This document shows positions 632 to 11,515 of a stretch of DNA of 11,515 nucleotides, piece by piece. The notes under the pieces were generated by a model, which was not told where the DNA came from, made no database searches, and saw only the letters and a list, made by a program, of their open reading frames with translations. Location of the stretch: NCBI GenBank assembly GCA_043228905.1, contig JBHGNT010001150.1, positions 1-11,515 of the forward strand, written 5' to 3'. Origin of the DNA: Azolla caroliniana (taxonomy: Eukaryota; Plantae; Polypodiophyta). Every line of letters starts with the position of its first letter. The first letter of the stretch is position 1. The position numbers and the translations under genes are program-made.

Positions 632-960
632 TGTCGTGAAGATTTTCGGCAATGGTGTGAAAATCACATAAAACGTACGAAATCGAGTGCAATTCATATA
701 AAATAATAATATTGAAGATACTAATTTAAAGTAAGTTTAATATCTTAATACAAAAAGATAGAGGTCTTGAAGAGCTTTCGGATGCACTTTATTATATAAG
801 AAACGGACATCTAAGTGTCAACTTATGTGGGTAGGAAGTTCGCAAAGACAAAGAGAAAAATAAAATTGTGAGATATCCCACATAGACAGGAAATAAGGAT
901 CTCACCATATATAACGTAGAGCAAAAGCTATTATCTTTGTGTCTATGTGTGGAGCATAGA
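632..960 (+). mobile_element. Truncated 3' LTR of a second probable Gypsy element
   Basis: Starts TGTCGTG (same 7 nt as the LTR at 608) right after a G-rich tract. It has an AT-rich U3 and TATATAA at 908-914. It is cut off about 45 bp after the TATA, where Copia integrase codons begin at 961. No matching CACGACA terminus is present. Confidence 0.55.
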
Positions 961-3156
961 GAGCTGTATTTCGGGTGGAAGCCAAATTTGTGACACCTTC
1001 GGATATTCAGTAGCATAGCATATGTGCATGTATCGAATGAGAAGCGGCTAGTGAACCCGGAGAGGTTCAAGTAGAAGATGAGGAATTTTGTACTCTAGAA
1101 GAGAGTCTGATCGCATTTCGGCTGAGCAGGCCAAATGATGGACTGAGTCGGAATGACCAGTCGGATGAAGAACCGATGAGTAGTGGAGACTCTGTCGTAC
1201 TCTCCCTGCGCAAGGAATCGAGGAGATGGTTCACACGCAAAGTGAAGTGGAAGAAGAAGATGTTGGGATATGACACCGGTAGTGAAGGGTGAGATCGGAG
1301 TGAATCTGACATTGGAAAGGATGAAGGCGGACCTTTAGAAACGAAGTCCAAACCGACCAAGGAGGGCCTCAAACCGGCTGCCTCAAACTATACCGGTCAA
1401 CCCGCCAAAAGATCCCCGTAAAACGGTATAGACACAATGAGTACACGACGCATCACTATGCGTACATGACCAAGGTGGCGGAAGTGCGTGAGCCGAAGAG
1501 CTATGTAGAAGCAGCGAAAGACGCAAATTGGCGCGCTGCTATGGAGGAAGAAATGCAGGCACTCGATGTCAACGACACATGAGATCTAATTGACCCTCCC
1601 CGTCATTGTAAACAAATTGGTTGTAAGTCGGTATATAAGGTAAACTACAATGCCGACGGTTTGGTCAACCGGTACAAGGCCCGGTTAGTGACGAAAGGAT
1701 ACACATAGACCCACGGAATCGACTACGACGAGACCTTCGCTCCGGTAGCGAAGATGACGACGGTTCGTGTGGTATTGGCTGTTGCTATGGCAAGGGGATG
1801 GCATCTTCACCAAATGAACGTGAAGAATGTGTTTCTTCAAGGTGACCTTGAAGAACGGGTCTATATGAACCAACCCCCCGATTTTCAATCGAAGTTGAAT
1901 AGGTCGTCGGTGTGCCGACTCAAAAAGTCACTTATTGGTCCAAAGCAAGGCCCCCGAGCTTGGAATGCAAAAATCACGCATCGGTTGCATAAGATGCGGT
2001 TTGTGGCCTCAAAGTCTGACTCTTTACTGTTCATCCGGAAAGGTCTGGATGGTCCGGTTAGTATCCTACTATATGTAGATGATCTAGTCATCACTAGACC
2101 AAGACTCGATGAAATCGGCCGAGTGATGTCCCAATTGTTGGAAGCATTTGAAATGAAGGACTTGGGGGACCTTCATTATTTTCTTGGGATCGAGGTGATC
2201 TGGACCCCCAATGGAATATTTCTCTTACAATGCCATGATGTGTTGAATATGTTGTACAAGTTCGGCATGACGGAATGTCGATCGATCTCCACACCCCTAG
2301 ACCGGAACCTGAAGCTATGTCCCGACTCCGGACCGGCATGCAATGAGAAACGGTTCTGACAAAATTGTCAGAAGCCTTATCTACTTGATAATCACCCGAC
2401 CCGACATTAATTATTCGATTGTAGTGATCAACCAGTTTATGCACAAGCCAACTATGGAGCATCTTCACCAAGCTGCTCAGATCAGACAAGTTGCAGCACT
2501 TTTCAGAGATGCTCGGCATTCAACATCTCGATGTGCTGCACTTAAGGGGGAGAATGGGAACCGAAACGGGTAATGGCACCGGACAAGGAGCCAAAGAGAA
2601 AGAGGAATGAGCCAAGACAGGGGGAGATAAGAAGAAAAAGGAAGTTGAGTCGACTAGAAAAGTTGATATATCCGAGCAAGTCGGAATAAGCGGCGGCGGC
2701 GGAAAACTCAGAAAGGACACAACCAACCGGAAGGAGAATACCAAGACCCGGACATGGTCCAATGTTGTGAAAGGCTTGAAAACGGAAGACGAGCTGGAGA
2801 CTACCAACACGGACAAGAGCTGGAATGAATTGTAGACAACCGATTTGATTCAACAGTTGGATTCGGATGATTCGGATCAACTAAAGGTTAAGCGAATGAC
2901 AACGCAGCGGAAGTCAATGCCAACACGGAGGAACCGGCCAGTCGACAAGCGCCGGAGTCATGACGGCGAGGAAGCTGAGAAGGGCCTATTGCGTAGACAT
3001 GTCGACCAAGAAGGTCGAGGAGTGCAAAACTGAACGGGTCGTGGAAGGAAGAACCAGACCGGACGAGGAGGGCAAGCAAGGCGGGAGGACGCCAGAAGGA
3101 GTCGGACGGAAGAACCGACTACCACAGAAACTTACTTGACCTCAAGTTCAGCTTGA
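961..3156 (+). pseudogene. pol: Copia pol pseudogene: integrase C-terminus, linker, RVT_2-type RT, RNase H C-terminal remnant and ~200-codon extension
   Basis: Motifs ELYFGWKPNL*HLRIFSSIAYVHV (961-), YKARLVTKGY, LHQMNVKNVFLQG, LKKSLIGPKQGPRAW, YVDD (2072-2083), DLGDLHYFLGIEV, TRPDI and IFTK...LRG (2461-2550). Stops at 991, 1580, 1706, 2608, 2833 and 3031. About 63 codons are deleted at ~1047 relative to A', and RNase H is deleted at ~2460. Confidence 0.93.
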
Positions 3157-3163
3157 GGGGGAG
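3155..3163 (+). other. Polypurine tract of Copia A
   Basis: ttGAGGGGGAG directly precedes TGTTGAG, the canonical Copia PPT/LTR junction. Confidence 0.9.
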
Positions 3164-3572
3164 TGTTGAGTGAGCAAGCTCAACCGGATCCAGATCGGTA
3201 TCCGGAACGGAGAACCAAATCGATGTTTGGATGATATCCGGAACCAAGAGTCGGATTGGAGAGCCGAATCGGATTGAAACTGGTAGGCCGTTAGAGGCCT
3301 ACGGATCCAGCCTAGTACGTAGGCATATTTTTGGGAGTTCGTGTCAATCGCTCGTATGAGCATTGAAGTACCTATCAGTCCTTTATGGACTTGTATAAAA
3401 GTGCTCTCTCAGCATATTCTATGTACACAGAGGAGTTTTATTTTTTAATTGAGTTTATGTTTTGCCATCTTTGTCGCTCCCGTGTAAGGTCTCCATTAAA
3501 CCTTCTTCTCTACATTCTGTTGGTATCTGGCTGAGCCGGTTTGTCATACGCTTCCACATATTAACTTTAACA
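3164..3572 (+). repeat. 3' LTR of Copia A (409 bp)
   Basis: TGTT...AACA termini. Homologous to 9267-8823 on the minus strand, sharing ggtaggccgtt, ggcctacggatc, agcctagtacgtaggcatatt and cttccacatattaac. Confidence 0.92.
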
Positions 3573-3665
3573 GTTCTCGACTAGGTCGGTCTTCGTCCGC
3601 ATTCACATTCGGTCAAATCGGGCTCGACCGATCGGTTTCGACCGAGTCGACTCTCTTTCAGGTCG
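3573..3665. other. Unassigned GC-rich spacer between two LTR termini (oldest visible layer)
   Basis: Bounded by ...AACA (3572) and TGTTAG (3666). It is CpG-rich and contains two 10-bp palindromes. Confidence 0.5.
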
Positions 3666-3943
3666 TGTTAGAATATTCATATTAGAAATAAGACGTTATT
3701 ATAAATAACAAGTATATCATAAATAAAGAAATAAGAATAACTAATGTAACCACCTATTAACGTGAGTTTTGTTCACTGTGACACAACTTTTGGTTACAAA
3801 GTTACATTCATGTGAGTTTTGATCACAATGAACATTCCCATTGTAAAATTCCCTATGATCTCTATTGCCTATAAAATGTAACATCTACCATGAATACAAT
3901 GTAATCTCTCTTTCTTCATAATCTTAAGTCATATGTATCAACT
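3666..3943 (+). repeat. 5' LTR of Copia B (~275 bp; 3' end at 3940 or 3943)
   Basis: Abrupt GC-to-AT switch at TGTTAGAATA (3666) and TATAAAA at 3870-3876. Ends ...gtatCA (3940) or ...tcaact (3943, decayed AACA), just before the gag ATG at 3968. Confidence 0.7.
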
Positions 3944-3967
3944 TGTTATCCTGAAAGATCTACGAAG

Positions 3968-5962
3968 ATGGAGTCTAACACAAGTCCAAAAAACAAAACG
4001 TCAATGACAGGAAAATACACCATGGAGAAACTCAACGACAAAAATTATAAAATGTGGAAATTAAGGATGATTATAATCCTCAAAAGCACACAATTAATCG
4101 ATATTGGTAAAGGTATAATACCAAAACCTTCAACCATCCCAGAATCAATAAAATGGAAAAATAAAGATTTAGATGCACGCATGGAATTAGTTATGCATCT
4201 AACCGATGAACAAATAGATTTAGTAAAAGATTTAGAAACATCAAAAGAAATATGTGATGCCTTGAAGGAATGCCACGAACCCTCAGACAGGACAACAAAG
4301 ATCAATAACTTAAGACACCTTGTCACATTGGAAATGGAAGAAAGTGAAGGAATTGATGCATTTATCAAGAAATGGCAATTAGCCCTTGATCAAACATTAT
4401 CGGCAGGTAATAAAATTGATGACGATATGAAATTCGATTTAATTTTGGGTGATTTACCAAATTCGTGGGACACCTTTGTCACCACACATGGAAATGATGA
4501 CATTTCGAACATGAAGAATATCTTCCTAAAAATGAAAAGAGAGGAGATTCAAAGAATTAAGGCAAGGCCAAACACAATGATGAATCAATGGCAATGACTA
4601 AGATTACAAGATTTCAAAAATCCAACTTCTCAAAGCCAAGATTTCAAAATTTTCAAAAATCATACAAGCCAAATCAACCATCAAAGCAAGGAGCACTCAA
4701 TGTTTCCACAATCATATTTAGATATTGCAACAAATTGGGACACATGGAAAGAGAATGTTGCTAGAAGCAATATGATCAAAGAAACAAAGGTAAAATGTTC
4801 AATGCCCAAGCACATTCTGCATTAATACCTAATGAAGAAGAAAACACATCCTTCATACAAGCATTCATGTAAGAAATACAAACTAACAAAATTCAAATGG
4901 AAAGATTATGGTACTTTGACAACGGAGCCACCCACCATTTCACCCATAGTCGAGAATGGTTACATAATTAAAATCGACTTCATCACCCACTTGAAGTATG
5001 CTTCGGAGATAATGGTACCAAGTTAGCTCTTGAAAAAGGTACAATTTATCTATCAATCAATAATAAATCCAAAATTACAATCTCGAATATTTACTTTGTC
5101 CCCGGTTTAGCAAAGAACTTACTATCTTTAAGTGAGGCTACATCAAATAGAACGATAATCGAATTTCATTACAATTGTTCTATAATTCGTTACAAGTTAC
5201 CCACTGGAGATATAATTAAAACAACATGTCCGAAGATTGGAAAACTATACGCATTAAAGATGATGGATCATTCGCCTATCGAAGCATATATAGCTTCATG
5301 CCATCAACAAGATGACCAAACATTGATATGGCACTATCGGCTAGGCCACCTACATCCAAAATCAATGAACACAATTCAAACACATAAACTTGTTGAAGGT
5401 ATACCAACTAAATCATTTCAATATTTATCTATTTGTGAATGATGTATTTACGACCAGAAAATTAGAAGAAAGTTCCCTCACCATATTCATCAAACCAAGA
5501 GGCCACTCCGAATCACCCATTCCGACTTATGCAAGCCGCTATAAACACCTTCAATAACTGGTAATCGATATTTTATTACCTTTATTGATGACTTCACAAG
5601 ATTCACTATAATTTACTTCATGAAGAGTAAAGCCGGTGCTTTCAATGCCTTCAAAACCTATAAAGCACTTGTTGAAAACCAATGTCAATCTCAAATTAAC
5701 ACAATTAGAACTGATAACGGTGGAGAATATTGTTCAACGGAATGGAAGACATTTTGTAAGACACAAGGAATAAGACATGAGTTTATAGCTTCATACAATC
5801 CACAACAAAATGGTGTGGTGGAGCGGAAGAATAGGACACTACTTGATGCAAGCCGGAGTATGCTTCAAGTCGCCGGTCTACACAACGGATTTTGGCAAGA
5901 GGCCATCTCTAGGATGTGTTATTTACAAAACAGATCTCCCCACAAGGTACTCACATTGAATA
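3968..5962 (+). pseudogene. gag-pol: Copia gag-pol pseudogene (Gag, Zn knuckle, aspartic protease, integrase)
   Basis: KLNDKNYKMWKLRM and LILGDLPNSWDTFV (Copia Gag); decayed CCHC knuckle FRYCNKLGHMEREC (4717-4758); protease WYFDNGATHH (4909-); WHYRLGH...CE*C; integrase HSDLC, FIDDFTR, IRTDNGGEY and QNGVVERKNRTL. There is a frameshift at ~4580 and several stops. Confidence 0.95.
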
Positions 5963-6118
5963 TGTCATGAACGACTAGACGAGGCTAAATACTAAGAGAG
6001 AGAGAGAGCATAGATAAGAGAGCAAGAAAGAGAGAGGAAATAGACAAAAGGGCGAGAACTGAATTATGCTTCCATAACTGGTGTTGTTCACCTTGATTTT
6101 AATCAAGTTGCACCCGAG

Positions 6119-6126
6119 TTTTTATA
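6119..6126 (-). promoter_or_regulatory. TATA box of the chromovirus LTR
   Basis: Minus strand reads tgTATAAAAActc, between U3 and the CT-rich region. Confidence 0.65.
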
Positions 6127-6155
6127 CATAATGTGGAGATATGCATGTAAGCTAG

Positions 6156-6209
6156 GAAACATCTAGAGAGTGCATGAAGATTCATTTTCTAGAAGTTTCT
6201 TGAAAGTTC
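6156..6209. promoter_or_regulatory. Heat-shock element (HSE) arrays in U3
   Basis: Perfect TTCtaGAAgtTTCttGAAagTTC at 6187-6209 (5 alternating nGAAn units), plus a degenerate GAAacaTCtaGAgagTgCatGAAgaTTC at 6156-6183. Confidence 0.75.
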
Positions 6210-6265
6210 TAGTGATTAACCTACAATTTAATAAGTTGAATCTTATACAATACAATAATGCATAG

Positions 6266-6337
6266 ATGGATGTAGCTCAACTAGTAAGGTTTCCCAATAA
6301 GACCAGGAGTTCATGGGTTCAACCCCCTACATTCCAT
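6266..6337 (+). ncRNA. tRNA-like (pseudo-tRNA / Pol III type-2 promoter) module inside the LTR, antisense to the element
   Basis: A-box-like TAGCTCAACTAGTA (6273-6286) and B-box GGTTCAACCCC (6316-6326), with U8-T54 distance 45 nt. Closing stem gatggatgtag/ctacattccatc. Stems are partly decayed, so this is not called a functional tRNA. Confidence 0.65.
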
Positions 6338-6350
6338 CGTGTCCATGACA

Positions 6351-6363
6351 TTATCCTCCCTTT
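6351..6363 (-). other. Polypurine tract of the chromovirus
   Basis: Minus strand reads AAAGGGAGGATAA, immediately followed by TGTCATG. It overlaps the pol stop codon. Confidence 0.9.
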
Positions 6364-8822
6364 AAGGCCGCCTCCCAAGACCAGCGGCCGGCTTATGTGG
6401 GTATTGTTGATGAACATCGTGAATGGTCTCTGAAGCATTTTGTAAATGTGTAACCGGTTCCCATGTGGCATCTGAAATGGGGTAACATTTCCATAAGACC
6501 AAATATTGGAGTTATTGACGAAGATAATGGGAGTCAAGGAGTTGGTCAACCACATATTTGTCTCCCGTCGACAATTCCACAAGTGATGGTGGAGGAGGTT
6601 GTCGTCCCAGAATTCGAGAAGGATGGTAGAGTTTGAGGAGGGAAATGTGAAAAACATCATGAATCCTGAATGTTGAAGGAAGTGCTAACCAGAAGGCAAC
6701 TAGGTTGAACCGCTCGATGATACAGAAGGGGCCTAGTCTTTTGTAGTCCAATTTTGCACAAGGACGTGTGGTGGCGATGTGGCGACGTGACAACCAAACC
6801 ATGCCCCCTGACTACAAACGTCGGTGCAGCCAAGTGATGTTGGTCTGCCTAATAATTATATTGGTAGCTAGTGACACGGAGTTCCAGGGAGAGGTCAACA
6901 TGGACATCGTGTAAAGTGCGGGCACATGTCTCTGTCGAAGGATTGACCAAAGTTGCAAGTATGAAAATGTTGAAACGAGGCTGAAATCCATAGTTTGCAA
7001 AGAAGGGGGAAACCTTAGTCGAAGCATGGATACTATTATTGTAGGAAAATTCTGCCATTGCAAGGAAGTCCACCCAATCCTCTTGTTCGTAGCTCATGGT
7101 ACACATGAGGTATTGTTCGAGGATTTGGTTGACTTGTTCGGGTTGTCCATCAGTTTGAGGATGGTATGCTGCTGAAATGTTTACAGAAGTCCCGAATGTC
7201 TGCATAAGTCGTCGCCAAAAGTGGGAAATGAATTGAGAACCTCGATTAGAGGTGATATCCTCGGGTAAGCCATGTAATCCGACAACATTATTAAGAAAAA
7301 ACTCAACTATCTCTTCTTTGGAAATGGTTTTGGAACATGGGACAAAGTGAACCATCTTCGAAAACCGATCGACGATTACTAGCACCATGTCATGGCCACC
7401 GAACAAAGGAAGGGCGGTTTTAAACTCCATGGATAGAGAGGCCCATGGTCTACTTGGAATTGGGAGCGGGTGGAGAAGACCGTATGGCCGATGGTGAGCC
7501 GTTTTGGATCGAGCACATAAATCACATGTCTTGATAAATTCCTTGACAAATTTCCAAGGTTGAGGACACCAAAACCCCCAAGATAGAACCTCCAGGGTTT
7601 TCATGACCCGGCCGGTAAGAGGATCATCATGATAGTTTTGTAGTACCCGTGTATGACACGATCCATTGGGAACGTACAAGAGATGATTACGAAATAGTAA
7701 CCCATCCTGGGTTGTAAATTGGTTGAGATATGAGCTTTTCATGTCCAGGGATAGGTCATTGATGCAGGCCATGATGTCTTTTGCGAATGGGTTTGACATT
7801 GTTGCCGTGGCGATCTCATTGAGAAAAGAATCATCATGCAACATGCAAGTGGCGAACATCTGAAGTTGATCGGGCCTCAACAAAAAATGGGATTGTTGCG
7901 AATATGCGTCATCCCCTGGGTGCAATGTGAAATTTGGTCGCCGAGAGAGGCCATAAACTTTCCCATGTTGAACTCCGGGTCGAAACAAGATGACCATCGG
8001 GCTTGCCTCCAATTCCCATGTACGACTGGTGGTGAAGTAAATTAGATTTTTGTGGCCATTCAACAATTGGATACGATGTTGGGCCCCAACCAAATAGGGT
8101 CGCCATTCGGCGAAGGCAGAAATGATTGCTGCAAGCTCCTTGTCGTAGACCGGATAATTGATTTCTGGGGCTATAAACTTCCAAGAGTAGAAGGCAATAT
8201 GATGTATTGTGTCCCCGTCATATGGTTGGGACAGGACAACTCTAATGGCAAAGTTAGAGGCATCGGTTTGACCTTGGAAGGGCCTTGTGGGGTCGGGGTG
8301 GACCAACATTGGGGCTGTGAGAAAAGCTGCCTTGAGGGGATCAAAAGCACTTTGCGCCACGGAGGTCCAAGGAAATGGAGTATCTTTTCTAGTAATGATT
8401 CTACCTCTTTCAACCAATTAGGGACAGGCCAATTGGTGATTGCCGCTACCTTGCGTGCATCCATTGTGATCTCGGAGGGTGAAATCACGTAGCCTAGGAA
8501 TTCGATAGAGGTTCGATCGAATTCACATTTCTCACTTTTGGCATAAATCCCATGTTCCCGAATTTTGGAGAAATATATTGTTCATCATATGGTTGAAGAC
8601 TACGGGGGTGTTGGTGAGACCGAAAGGCATCAACTTGTACTTGAAATGTCCATAGCGTGTTCGGAAGGTTGTTTTCAAGTCGTCTCCAAGCTTGATACAC
8701 ACTAGATTGTAGGCTCCCCGAAGGTTGATTTTGGAGAAGATACGCCCGGTTCGAAGTTGGTCAAGGACTGTTGGAATTAAAGGTAAGGGATAACAATTAT
8801 GTACCATAATTTTGTTGAGACC
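6362..8822 (-). pseudogene. pol: Gypsy pol pseudogene: RT (YLDD deleted), RNase H, integrase, GPF motif, chromodomain
   Basis: [37 protein letters not shown]; RNase H TDASNFA, NYPVYDKELAAI; integrase CDLC, VIVDRFSKMVHF, YHPQTDGQPE; KLDYKRLGPF, VFHISLLK; chromodomain YVVDQLLDS..LQYLVLWKCYPISDATWEP. Stop at 6364-6362. Confidence 0.96.
6410..6556 (-). other. Integrase C-terminal chromodomain, one internal stop
   Basis: YVVDQLLDSHYLRQ*LQYLVLWKCYPISDATWEPVTHLQNA; the aromatic-cage positions Y, W and Y are retained. Confidence 0.9.
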
Positions 8823-9267
8823 TATAAAGGTTAATATGTGGAAGCTTGTAGATGAAACCGGCTTACAAAAGAAAATAGAAAACAGAGATAAGGTTTAATG
8901 GAAGCTTGAATACACGGGAGAGACAGAGAGAGAGCAGAACAGAAACTTTATTCAAAATAATAACATTGTCTATATACAAATGTCCTATAGAACACTAACA
9001 AAAGTCCTTAATGGACTGAAAGAAGTACTTACATATACTTCAATCCTCATATGAGCGAGTGACACTAACTCCAAGGAATATGCCTACGTACTAGGCTAGA
9101 TCCGTAGGCCTTTAACGGCCTACCGGTTACAATCCGATTTGTCTCTTTCATCTGGGTCTTGGTTTCGGATACCGATCCGGATACTTTTCCGGTTCTTCGT
9201 TCCATATACTGATTCAGATCCGGCTTATTCAGCCGATCCGAATCCGATTGAGCTTGTCCGCTCAACA
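8823..9267 (-). repeat. 3' LTR of Copia A' (445 bp)
   Basis: Starts TGTTGAGCGGACAAGCTCAA (compare TGTTGAGTGAGCAAGCTCAA at 3164). Ends cttccacatattaacctttaTA (terminal CA mutated), after which Gypsy RT codons resume. Confidence 0.9.
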
Positions 9268-11515
9268 CTCAACTTGAGGTTGGATCAAGGTGTCAGTGTT
9301 TGCCGGTCCTTTCCTCCGGCTCCTCCCGGTGTCTTCCCGCCTTGCTCACGCTCCTTTTCCCGTCCAATCCCACTTCCGACAACCTGTCCCATTCCGCGCT
9401 CCTCGACATTTTTGGTTAGCTTGCATGCTCATAAGGCCCATTTTAGCTCCTTTGTTGCTGTGACTTCCGCACTTCTCAACCCGTCAGTTCCTCCGTGGTG
9501 GTGACAACTTCTACTGCCTTCTTGTCCGTTTCGCCTTTAGTGGAACCAACTCCTCCGAATCAAATACGTTCGGGTCATTAGACCACGTTCGAGTCTTGGC
9601 CTTCTCCTTCTGGTCAGCTCTATCCTTCTGAAATATACCACTGTCGCCGCTTGTTCCGACTTGCTTGGATTCTACCACATTAGCTTCCTTGTCTCCCCTT
9701 GTTTTGGTTTCCCTTTCTCCGGCTCCTTGTCCGGTGTCATTACCTGCCTTTCTGGTTTAGGGTTGGAGACCAAGCCACTCTGAAAAATGCTACAACTTGT
9801 CGGTTCCTAGTGCCTTGGTGAAGATGTTGGCAACCTGCTGATCTGTGCAAACATACCGGAGTTCAACTTCACCGCTGAGGACCCGCTCATGCACAAAGTC
9901 AACATTCAACACATAATGTCACTGACACAACAATATGTCGTCAGGGGTGTGGATCACTTCGATCTTGAGGAAGTAATGAAGGTCCCCCAAGTCCTTCATT
10001 TTGAATGCATCTGACAGTTGGGACTTCACTCGCCCGATTTCAGTGAGTCCGGATCCAGTGATGACTAGATCATCCACGTAAAGCAAGATGCATACCGTAC
10101 CTTCCAAACCTTTCCATATGAACAACAAAGGGTCAGACTTTGAGGCCGCAAACCCCATCTTACGCAACTAGTGCGTGATTTTCAAATTCCAAGCACGGGG
10201 AGCTTGCTTCAAGCTGTAAAGTGACTTCTTGAGTCAGCACACTACCGACTTGTTAATCTCAGACTGAAATTCGGGGGGCTGGATCCTGTAGACTTTTTCC
10301 TCAAGGTCATCTTGAAGAAACACATTCTTCACGTCCATTTGGTAAAGATGCCACCCCCTTGTTGCAACAACTGCTAGCACCACACGAACCATTTTCATCT
10401 TCGCTACCGGAGGGAAGGTCTCTTCGTAGTTGATTCCGTCGGTTTGCGCATATCCTTTCGCCACTAACTGAGCCTTCTACCGGTTGACCGAACCATTGGC
10501 ATTGAATTTCACCTTGAACACCCATTTTCAGCCAATTGGTTTGTAGTGTCGGGGATGGTCAACCAGGTCCCATGTGTCGTTAGCATCAAGTGCATGCATC
10601 TCTTCCTCCACAGTGGCACGCCAATGTGCATCTTTTGCCTCTTCTGCATAGCACTCTGGCTCACGCACTTCTGCCACTTTCGTCATGTACGCATAATGAT
10701 GTGTGATATAGTGTGTACCCAATGCCGTTTGACCAGGTTCTTTTGGCAGGTCCATCAACATAACTTCTTGTTACCCAATTTCGAGGCCTTTTTGGCCGAC
10801 TCGGACTTCGTGACCGTAGGTCCGTTTTCGTTTCTTTCAAAGTCGGATTTGGTCTGATCCAACTCTTCTTTGCTAGTGTCATATTCCAACATTTTCTTCT
10901 TTTCTTTCTCTTTGCATGTGAACCGCCTTCTCGGTTCCTTATGCATGGAAAGCATGGCTGAGTTTTCGCTTCTCGCCAGCCCTTCATCTTGCTGGCCTTT
11001 CCGACTCAACTCTTCATTGGGCCCGCTCAACCGAAATGAGATCAGACTCTCATCTAGAGTACTGAATCCTTCTTCATCTTCTGCAGGGATCGTCTCTGGC
11101 TCACTGGACTCATCTTCCGGAATCGGGTCGGAGTCGGGGGTCCGAGACGATAGAGAGTACCAAGATGCCGACTCATCAAATTTGACATCTCGGCTTACTC
11201 GGACTTCCTTTGTCTTGGGATTGTAACACTTGTATCCCTTTTTCTCATGAGAGTAGTGGACCAAAATGCACTTCTCTGACTTCATGTCCAACTTCCTCCT
11301 CTTCTCATCCGGCACATGCACATAGGCAATGCTACCGAATATCCTAAGGTTCCTTACATTTGGCTTTCGTCCGAAATATAGCTCGTGTGTTGACACCTTA
11401 TCCTCGATCCGGTTTTGGATGTAAACGACCGTCCGGACCGCCTTGGCCCAATAGAACCTTGGTATGCTCTTCTCCTCCAATATCGCCCATGCCGCCTCCA
11501 CAATCAACCAATTCT
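9268..11515 (-). pseudogene. pol: Copia pol pseudogene (integrase C-terminal half, RT, RNase H remnant, extension)
   Basis: YWAKAVRTVVYIQNR, LRIFGSIAYVHVPDEKRRKLD, KKGYKCY, VSRDVKFDE; RT LYQMDVKNVFL, YVDD (10080-10069), DLGDLHYFL; RNase H tail FVHERV..QQVANIFTKAL. Multiple stops and frameshifts. Confidence 0.94.

What the first reader, a model, noticed from the sequence alone, without database searches (positions are those of the whole stretch)
6265..6338. tRNA-shaped Pol III promoter module built into the U3 edge of a chromovirus LTR
Seen: 6266-6337 maps onto a 72-nt tRNA frame. It has U8-A9-GCTC (6273-6278), D-loop AACTAGTA (one G>A from the conserved GG), and an anticodon arm tccca-ATAAGAC-cagga with 3 of 5 pairs, U33 and purine 37. 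A 4-nt variable loop precedes the T-arm ggg-TTCAACC-ccc, and an 11-bp closing stem with one bulge (gatggatgtag/ctacattccatc) closes it. It ends about 12 bp from the LTR terminus, is antisense to the element, and has no A-tail or visible TSD, so it does not look like a later SINE insertion. Known: A/B boxes recruit TFIIIC, and Cassandra TRIMs carry 5S-rRNA-derived Pol III promoters in their LTRs. Inference: this may be a tRNA-based analogue of Cassandra in a protein-coding Gypsy family. I do not know of a description of it, but cannot search.
Basis: partly seen in the sequence, partly recalled or inferred. Interest (0 to 1): 0.82.

Follow-up and report, generated by a model that had tools for sequence, protein, structure and literature searches.

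The report
Backwards SINE head in retrotransposon LTR
The tRNA-like patch matches the front end of an abundant short mobile element (SINE) of the same plant and sits back to front at the outer edge of this retrotransposon's terminal repeat; it was likely captured from that SINE, points away from the element so is unlikely to transcribe it, and may be kept as an outward-facing binding site for the tRNA-gene machinery.

Summary
The sequence is as described, but it is not a folded tRNA and not a Cassandra-type promoter. It is an A-box/B-box pair (1 of 1000 shuffles) with no Rfam tRNA match and no covariation. The head is fixed in the LTR family (34 of 83 loci), including copies with intact pol. 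It faces away from a TATA box and an 11-nt self-primer that account for the genomic RNA. Within the family it is no better conserved than the rest of U3. In favour of a role: one distant chromovirus of the same host (~50% pol identity) has a different A/B pair at the same place and strand, while 0 of 63 protein-selected distant elements and SM-Tcn1 do. Best reading: a captured SINE head, perhaps kept as an outward TFIIIC site (0.42), nearly tied with a passenger (0.38). This scan noted tRNA boxes in fungal LTRs on other DNA before.

The parts
5963..6350 (-). 3' LTR (388 bp, TGTCA..TGACA ends) of a Tcn1-like chromovirus, inserted in a Copia integrase frame
   Evidence: homologous LTRs in 34 loci
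6263..6341 (+). Segment shared with the 5' head of the free SINE-like element (tRNA-derived head plus start of body; this copy lacks about 8 nt of the shared 3' part that most copies have)
6273..6284 (+). A box, one mismatch at 6283 (shared by 5 of 28 LTR rows)
   Evidence: box consensus recalled, core motifs as in PMC10886601
6317..6325 (+). B box, intact, 44 nt from the A-box start; no T4 terminator before the LTR ends
6342..6350 (-). LTR terminal bases outside the shared segment (about 12 nt in most copies)
6351..6363 (-). Polypurine tract
6119..6126 (-). TATA box of the predicted Pol II promoter of the genomic RNA
6084..6094 (-). Predicted RNA start and 11-nt self-primer, 32 nt from the TATA start, complementary to the sequence next to U5 in relatives
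6155..6206 (.). Palindrome in U3 between TATA box and module
6365..8894 (-). Broken pol remnant: RT, RNase H, integrase, SH3, chromodomain (stops and frameshifts); the 5' part and 5' LTR are not in the window

Best explanation
The module matches the first 80-90 nt of a free tRNA-derived SINE-like element of the host and lies back to front about 12 nt inside the U3 edge of the LTR; it was likely captured once from that SINE, is now copied with the LTR, and is likely kept as an outward-facing TFIIIC/Pol III site that would keep the LTR's outer edge open or shield the predicted Pol II promoter 140-180 nt inside, not as the promoter or primer of the element's RNA. Shown: shared sequence and its ends, a free abundant family with that head, presence in LTRs of intact elements, orientation, box spacing, lack of tRNA fold. 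Inferred: direction SINE to LTR, Pol II/TATA transcription with self-priming, TFIIIC binding, boundary role. The capture route is open: a template switch onto packaged SINE RNA shortly after plus-strand priming at the PPT would give this strand, place and 3' truncation without tail or TSD; insertion followed by deletion would too.
For: Free family: 29 of 83 loci from an A-box search carry the head with another body, A-rich end and AG-rich flanks; 1350-2452 contigs per run lie on one free copy in 4 of 4 runs that also hold the window, body included. Heads: 28 LTR rows are one side of a 0.041 branch from 12 SINE rows (93/80 support). Other promoter: TATA plus 11-nt complement exactly 32 nt apart in L020, L038, L031 and 8 nt in L056, that is in 4 of the 5 tested loci whose U5 side borders internal sequence; most Tcn1 elements are predicted to self-prime (PMC6317226 passages). 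For retention: L008 holds a chromovirus about 50% identical in pol with a different A/B pair (one mismatch each, spacing 45) at the same distance from the LTR end and on the same strand; 3 of 6000 shuffles match so. A-B spacing is 44 nt in 25 of 28 rows, against modal shares of 8/23 to 20/23 in four other 44-nt LTR windows. B box intact in 22 of 27 LTR loci. The module-bearing U3 is 90% identical between elements whose chromodomain DNA is 65-71% identical.
Against: No selection signal inside the family: module outside the search motif 0.87 against U3 0.84 pairwise identity (253 pairs); B-box core columns with shared variants 2 of 6 against 43 of 134 in U3, p=0.71 (low power). An A-box GG loss is carried by 5 of 28 rows. 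L008 is a single decayed copy, and whether its module is homologous or independent is unresolved. 0 of 63 distant chromovirus 3' ends and SM-Tcn1 (read by eye) have it, so the clade does not need it. The tree is unrooted. The LTR sample was picked by the A-box motif, so module-less family members could not appear. No binding or RNA data.
Confidence: 0.42

Rival explanations
1. Same origin, no function: a SINE head captured at a recombination hot spot just after the PPT and carried as a passenger in a successful LTR.
For: Module no better conserved than U3; no covariation; A-box variant amplified; absent from 63 distant elements and SM-Tcn1; the donor is very abundant. A pause of reverse transcriptase about 12 nt after PPT priming is known for HIV-1 (recalled, no call) and could make this site a hot spot.
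Against: A second lineage has near-intact boxes at the same site and strand with little else alignable; box spacing is stable.
Confidence: 0.38
2. The site is kept for its RNA: Pol III reads from the 3' LTR antisense over the PPT and chromodomain end (to the first T4, about 130-180 nt) and this RNA tunes the element.
For: No T4 inside the LTR in 24 of 28 rows; first T4 at +128 to +183 in 3' LTRs where one was found. Pol III units in the U3 of autonomous retroelements are known in foamy viruses (PMC3993851 passages).
Against: No conserved fold or terminator of its own; the T4 position differs between lineages.
Confidence: 0.08
3. Reverse direction: the module is old in the host's Tcn1 LTRs and the free SINE was born from its outward Pol III transcript.
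For: L008 aligns colinearly with the window module to the LTR end (z 5.5, partly from boxes and terminus); the tree is unrooted.
Against: The free element does not continue with LTR-terminal or PPT sequence; unrelated SINE-like heads share the same 19-nt motif; LTR rows are one tight group, SINE rows a star.
Confidence: 0.09
4. One reading: a tRNA-based Cassandra analogue, a Pol III promoter that serves the element's own transcription.
For: Intact boxes, fixed in the LTR family.
Against: Antisense and at the U3 edge; TATA and self-primer present; a multi-kb coding RNA needs Pol II (argued in PMC10886601); head shared with a free SINE.
Confidence: 0.03

Closest known systems
Helenus / TRIMp3 (Kojima 2024, PMC10886601; parts 1-4 of 6 of the text, searched passages and supplement passages read)
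   Same: tRNA-derived A/B boxes inside an LTR, no working tRNA; origin proposed as SINE insertion into an LTR; the paper also says 'not a few' Repbase LTRs hold tRNA-like parts but follows up only TRIMs.
   Different: Helenus is non-coding and short; in the two named LTRs I looked up the module is sense and near the U5 end. Here the element codes for pol, self-primes, the module is antisense at the U3 edge, and the likely donor SINE is still free in the genome.
Cassandra TRIM (PMC7215508 passages; PMC10886601)
   Same: Pol III promoter boxes fixed in LTRs of a plant retroelement.
   Different: 5S-derived, starts the element's own RNA, tRNA PBS, non-autonomous.
tRNA-derived SINEs (SINE2)
   Same: The free family has an A/B head, about 200 nt, A-rich end, dispersed and tandem copies.
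   Different: The LTR holds only the head; the free element has a second A/B pair on the opposite strand at its 3' end; TSDs and LINE partner not shown.
Tcn1 chromoviruses (SM-Tcn1, PMC2864245 passages and supplement S3; PMC6317226 passages)
   Same: RT-RH-INT-chromodomain order, aromatic-cage-type chromodomain, no tRNA PBS, predicted self-priming.
   Different: The SM-Tcn1 LTR shows no antisense B box near its U3 edge (read by eye).
Foamy virus U3 Pol III miRNA units (PMC3993851 passages)
   Same: Pol III-type unit in U3 of an autonomous retroelement, separate from the Pol II promoter.
   Different: Those are transcribed hairpins with terminators and shown products; here no terminator, no conserved fold, no RNA data.
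cqgypsy_1 of Culex (PMC3286476 passages)
   Same: tRNA-derived sequence inserted at an LTR of a Ty3/gypsy element.
   Different: Two whole tRNAs with CCA at the LTR/PBS junction with a 26-nt duplication, found as one copy.

Membership tests
Helenus / TRIMp3 | Non-autonomous, short (311-1263 bp), no protein coding | tested here: not met
   Pol remnant in the window; intact 1243- and 1246-aa frames beside module-bearing LTRs
Helenus / TRIMp3 | tRNA-derived boxes A and B in the LTR | tested here: met
Helenus / TRIMp3 | Module oriented to transcribe the element (sense) | tested here: not met
   Antisense here; sense in Helenus-1_SMo and LTR-1_PGr
Helenus / TRIMp3 | tRNA primer-binding site | tested here: not met
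   Self-primer complement next to U5 instead
Cassandra | 5S rRNA-derived LTR core | tested here: not met
   No 5S match in Rfam; boxes are tRNA type
tRNA gene | Cloverleaf scored by ARAGORN/RF00005 and kept by covariation | tested here: not met
   (62% of cells paired; 135 of 500 shuffles reach the covariation score)
tRNA-derived SINE (free family) | 5' head with A and B boxes | tested here: met
   L037 head 0 mismatches, spacing 45; B box intact in 11 of 18 copies
tRNA-derived SINE (free family) | Short, dispersed, high copy, no LTR ends | tested here: met
   154-209 nt to the end motif in 8 of 18 copies where it was found; unrelated flanks
tRNA-derived SINE (free family) | 3' A-rich or simple-repeat tail | tested here: met
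   Short A-rich end running into AG repeats
tRNA-derived SINE (free family) | Target-site duplications | tested here: inconclusive
   Only 6-10 nt purine-rich matches inside AG-rich flanks
tRNA-derived SINE (free family) | 3' end shared with a LINE partner; Pol III transcription | not testable with these tools
   No host genome held, no RNA run laid
Tcn1 chromovirus | Ty3/gypsy domain order with C-terminal chromodomain bearing the aromatic cage | tested here: met
   (cage residues read by eye in intact relatives)
Tcn1 chromovirus | No tRNA PBS, self-priming | tested here: met
   PMC6317226
Tcn1 chromovirus | Placement in the Tcn1 clade on an RT-RH-INT tree with reference elements | not tested
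   REXdb files too large to read; only by-eye likeness to SM-Tcn1

The most novel reading that the evidence does not exclude
Autonomous, self-priming chromoviruses of this plant lineage have more than once recruited tRNA/SINE heads, back to front, to the same spot at the U3 edge, as a built-in outward-facing TFIIIC boundary that protects their Pol II promoter from the surrounding chromatin; the live donor SINE makes this a snapshot of the SINE-into-LTR step proposed for Cassandra and Helenus.
Probability: 0.3. Interest if true: 0.72.

Novelty: new variant of a known kind. Interest (0 to 1): 0.45.

Why it matters
Cassandra and Helenus are supposed to have arisen by a SINE entering an LTR, but that step is a conjecture in the papers read. 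Here donor and captured copy coexist, with mappable junctions, in an autonomous element. If the boxes prove selected, LTR retrotransposons can carry their own Pol III-type boundary, testable with one B-box mutation. If not, it is an ordinary captured fragment that still warns against reading A/B boxes in LTRs as Cassandra-like promoters. My ten literature searches (open-access library only) found no description of an antisense SINE head at the U3 edge of a coding chromovirus.

Tried and rejected
No host genome is held, so copies came from host-derived contigs in metagenomes and run contigs. No RNA holder listed. A-box motif in viral contigs: 0. Single-protein scans of viral and genome contigs: no relative; the alignment scans worked. 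Parent tRNA: 67 of 70 viral-contig matches to a head motif were called tRNAs, mostly Ala (26) and Gly (18), best identity 68-74%, so no isotype can be named. A too-short A-box pattern gave 0 matches and was replaced by an 11/12-nt version. The first box scan missed L008 because it demanded C61; the relaxed scan was then applied to all rows alike, so the L008 chance figure is post hoc. In some searches, 26 of 97 loci whose match stopped short of the chromodomain end were left out, and 8 more with under 200 nt downstream; the 3 hits among 63 (L163, L177, L192; shuffled sets 0-2) are not antisense at a U3 edge. An empty-site LTR was not found among the 15 of 66 joints shown. Cloverleaf and long closing stem: no covariation. 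Module as reverse-transcription primer: wrong end of the element, self-primer present. 5-bp TSDs did not match in 3 of 3 complete LTRs without internal flanks (L006, L009, L070), possibly assembly chimeras. Supplements of PMC7466625 held no searched motif; REXdb sequence files and the .DOC files of PMC2864245 could not be read and may bear on how widespread the module is. No family covariance model was built.

Full report
Setting. The window is a nest of decayed LTR retrotransposons. A Ty3/gypsy element lies on the minus strand: RT, RNase H, integrase, SH3 and chromodomain at 8894-6365, PPT at 6363-6351 and a 388-bp LTR at 6350-5963 that interrupts a Copia integrase frame. Its 5' end is not in the window. 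Domain order, chromodomain type, fungal-like nearest named proteins and self-priming point to the Tcn1 group of non-seed plants (PMC6317226 and PMC2864245, passages); no tree with reference elements was made.

Observation. Every quoted feature is at its coordinates. The A+B box pair is unique in the window and appeared in 1 of 1000 shuffles. The tRNA shape is not real: ARAGORN and Rfam do not call it, nor any of 20 related loci; the fold is unremarkable (z -0.86); over 26 distinct LTR rows the cloverleaf pairs in 62% of cells with no excess covariation, and the long closing stem has 0 pairs changed on both sides.

What else carries it. A 19-nt A-box motif found 84 stretches in metagenome contigs, 83 loci stored. 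By context: 34 lie in homologues of the window LTR, 29 (three pairs are duplicates) lead a different body, 20 are unrelated SINE-like heads or chance matches. The 29 define a free element of about 200 nt with an A-rich end, unrelated flanks, frequent tandem copies and AG repeats just upstream in 12 of 22 examined. Laid on one free copy, 4 of 4 runs that hold the window (three coded organisms, three studies; one may be the window's source) gave 1350-2452 contigs each, covering head and body, with AG-rich loose ends at the 5' boundary. Summed depth at the B box was about ten times that of LTR-only U3, a crude figure that the tool says is no copy number. The shared segment runs from the free element's 5' end to about 10 nt past the tRNA-like part and stops about 12 nt from the LTR terminus. 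On an unrooted tree 28 LTR heads are separated from 12 free heads by one 0.041 branch: one exchange. I read it as SINE to LTR (inference) because the free element continues with its own body and tail and no LTR-terminal sequence, and unrelated SINE-like heads share the motif.

It is a family trait. Depth across the module is of the same order as the rest of the LTR in 4 of 4 runs; 13 of 32 LTR loci have the PPT directly beside it; two carry intact pol frames of 1243 and 1246 aa. U3 is 90% identical between elements whose chromodomain DNA is 65-71% identical, so the module-bearing LTR was likely swapped between pol lineages; collapsed assemblies could contribute.

How the element is transcribed. 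A TATA box (6126-6119) lies 32 nt before an 11-nt stretch (6094-6084) that is complementary to the sequence next to U5 in L020, L038 and L031, with 8 nt in L056 and no match of 6 nt or more in L026; seven loci with other flanks gave at most 6-nt matches elsewhere. That is the Tf1-type self-priming layout (11-nt primer recalled; self-priming of Tcn1). The module lies 138-183 nt upstream of TATA and points away, so it is neither promoter nor primer of the genomic RNA. A Pol III transcript would leave the LTR, since 24 of 28 rows lack a T4 inside it: into host DNA from a 5' LTR, antisense over PPT and chromodomain from a 3' LTR.

Is it selected? Within the family, not detectably: 0.87 against 0.84 pairwise identity, B box 0.915; shared variants in 2 of 6 B-box core columns against 43 of 134 U3 columns, p=0.71; 5 of 28 rows share the A-box loss seen in the window. 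The A box cannot be judged because it was the search motif. On the other side, box spacing is 44 nt in 25 of 28 rows, and the only other chromovirus 3' end in these host contigs (L008, about 50% pol identity) has a different A/B pair, one mismatch in each box, spacing 45, B box 33 nt from the LTR end (34 in the window), same strand; 3 of 6000 shuffles do as well, with criteria relaxed after seeing it. Its U3 beyond the module is not significantly alignable (z up to 2.65), so common descent and separate capture both remain. Either needs selection on the boxes or a capture hot spot. The trait is not clade-wide: of 63 protein-selected distant chromovirus 3' ends none has an antisense pair at the U3 edge; L192 has a sense pair in its LTR; SM-Tcn1 shows none (by eye).

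Mechanism. Best reading (0.42): a captured SINE head kept as an outward-facing TFIIIC/Pol III site acting as boundary or open-chromatin anchor for the Pol II promoter; barrier activity of tRNA-type boxes is recalled knowledge, binding here is untested. A passenger at a hot spot is nearly as likely (0.38); regulatory antisense RNA 0.08; LTR-to-SINE direction 0.09; Cassandra-like promoter 0.03. The origin part (head shared with a free SINE, fixed in the LTR, not the element's promoter) I hold at about 0.85.

Known systems. tRNA boxes in LTRs are in print as Helenus, with SINE insertion as proposed origin and a remark that not a few Repbase LTRs hold tRNA-like parts (PMC10886601); this element fails membership on coding capacity, orientation and primer. 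Cassandra (PMC7215508 passages), foamy-virus U3 Pol III units (PMC3993851 passages) and cqgypsy_1 (PMC3286476 passages) are partial parallels; PMC13570524 (passages) only cites such captures. Ten searches found no antisense U3-edge SINE head in a coding chromovirus. Two unchecked notes of this scan report tRNA boxes in fungal LTRs; none matched by sequence, and the 8 of 45 same-genome notes shown concern another feature.

Verdict. Observation partly confirmed, interpretation partly supported; new variant of a known kind; interest 0.45.

Noticed in passing
L037 about 826-921, L047 about 715-810, L007, L027, L032 and others: The free SINE-like element has a second A/B box pair on the opposite strand at its 3' end (spacing 43-48; found within 4 mismatches in 9 of 11 copies, within 2 in 4), so two tRNA-type promoters face each other. 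One search found no description.
   Followed up: partly
L008 3359-3436 (minus strand): Distant chromovirus of the same host with a different antisense A/B pair at the U3 edge.
   Followed up: yes
L192 about 3938-4005: A distant chromovirus LTR (40% identity) with a sense A/B-like pair and a perfectly paired T-arm 40-110 nt from the U3 edge; not called by ARAGORN.
   Followed up: partly
window 6155-6206: Palindrome in U3, among the better conserved LTR parts (10 of 52 columns with shared variants).
   Followed up: partly
L020, L038, L045, L059: One LTR with internal sequence on both sides: tandem elements or collapsed assembly.
   Followed up: no
window about 960-3580 (+) and 8810-11515 (-): Two related Copia copies in inverted orientation, 70-90% complementary in blocks, flank a second Copia type (3905-5962) and the Gypsy remnant.
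   Followed up: no
L172-L250: 144 of 164 pattern-matched stretches in the prokaryote genome collection encode chromovirus-like integrase, likely eukaryotic contamination in these assemblies.
   Followed up: no
L005, L010, L014, L018, L049, L075, L076 and duplicates: Unrelated SINE-like heads from other samples share the same 19-nt A-box motif.
   Followed up: no
table 7, run X4, place 6340: Loose ends (16 contigs, agreement 0.5) hint at further LTR families with the same PPT and a B-box-like motif just inside the terminus.
   Followed up: no
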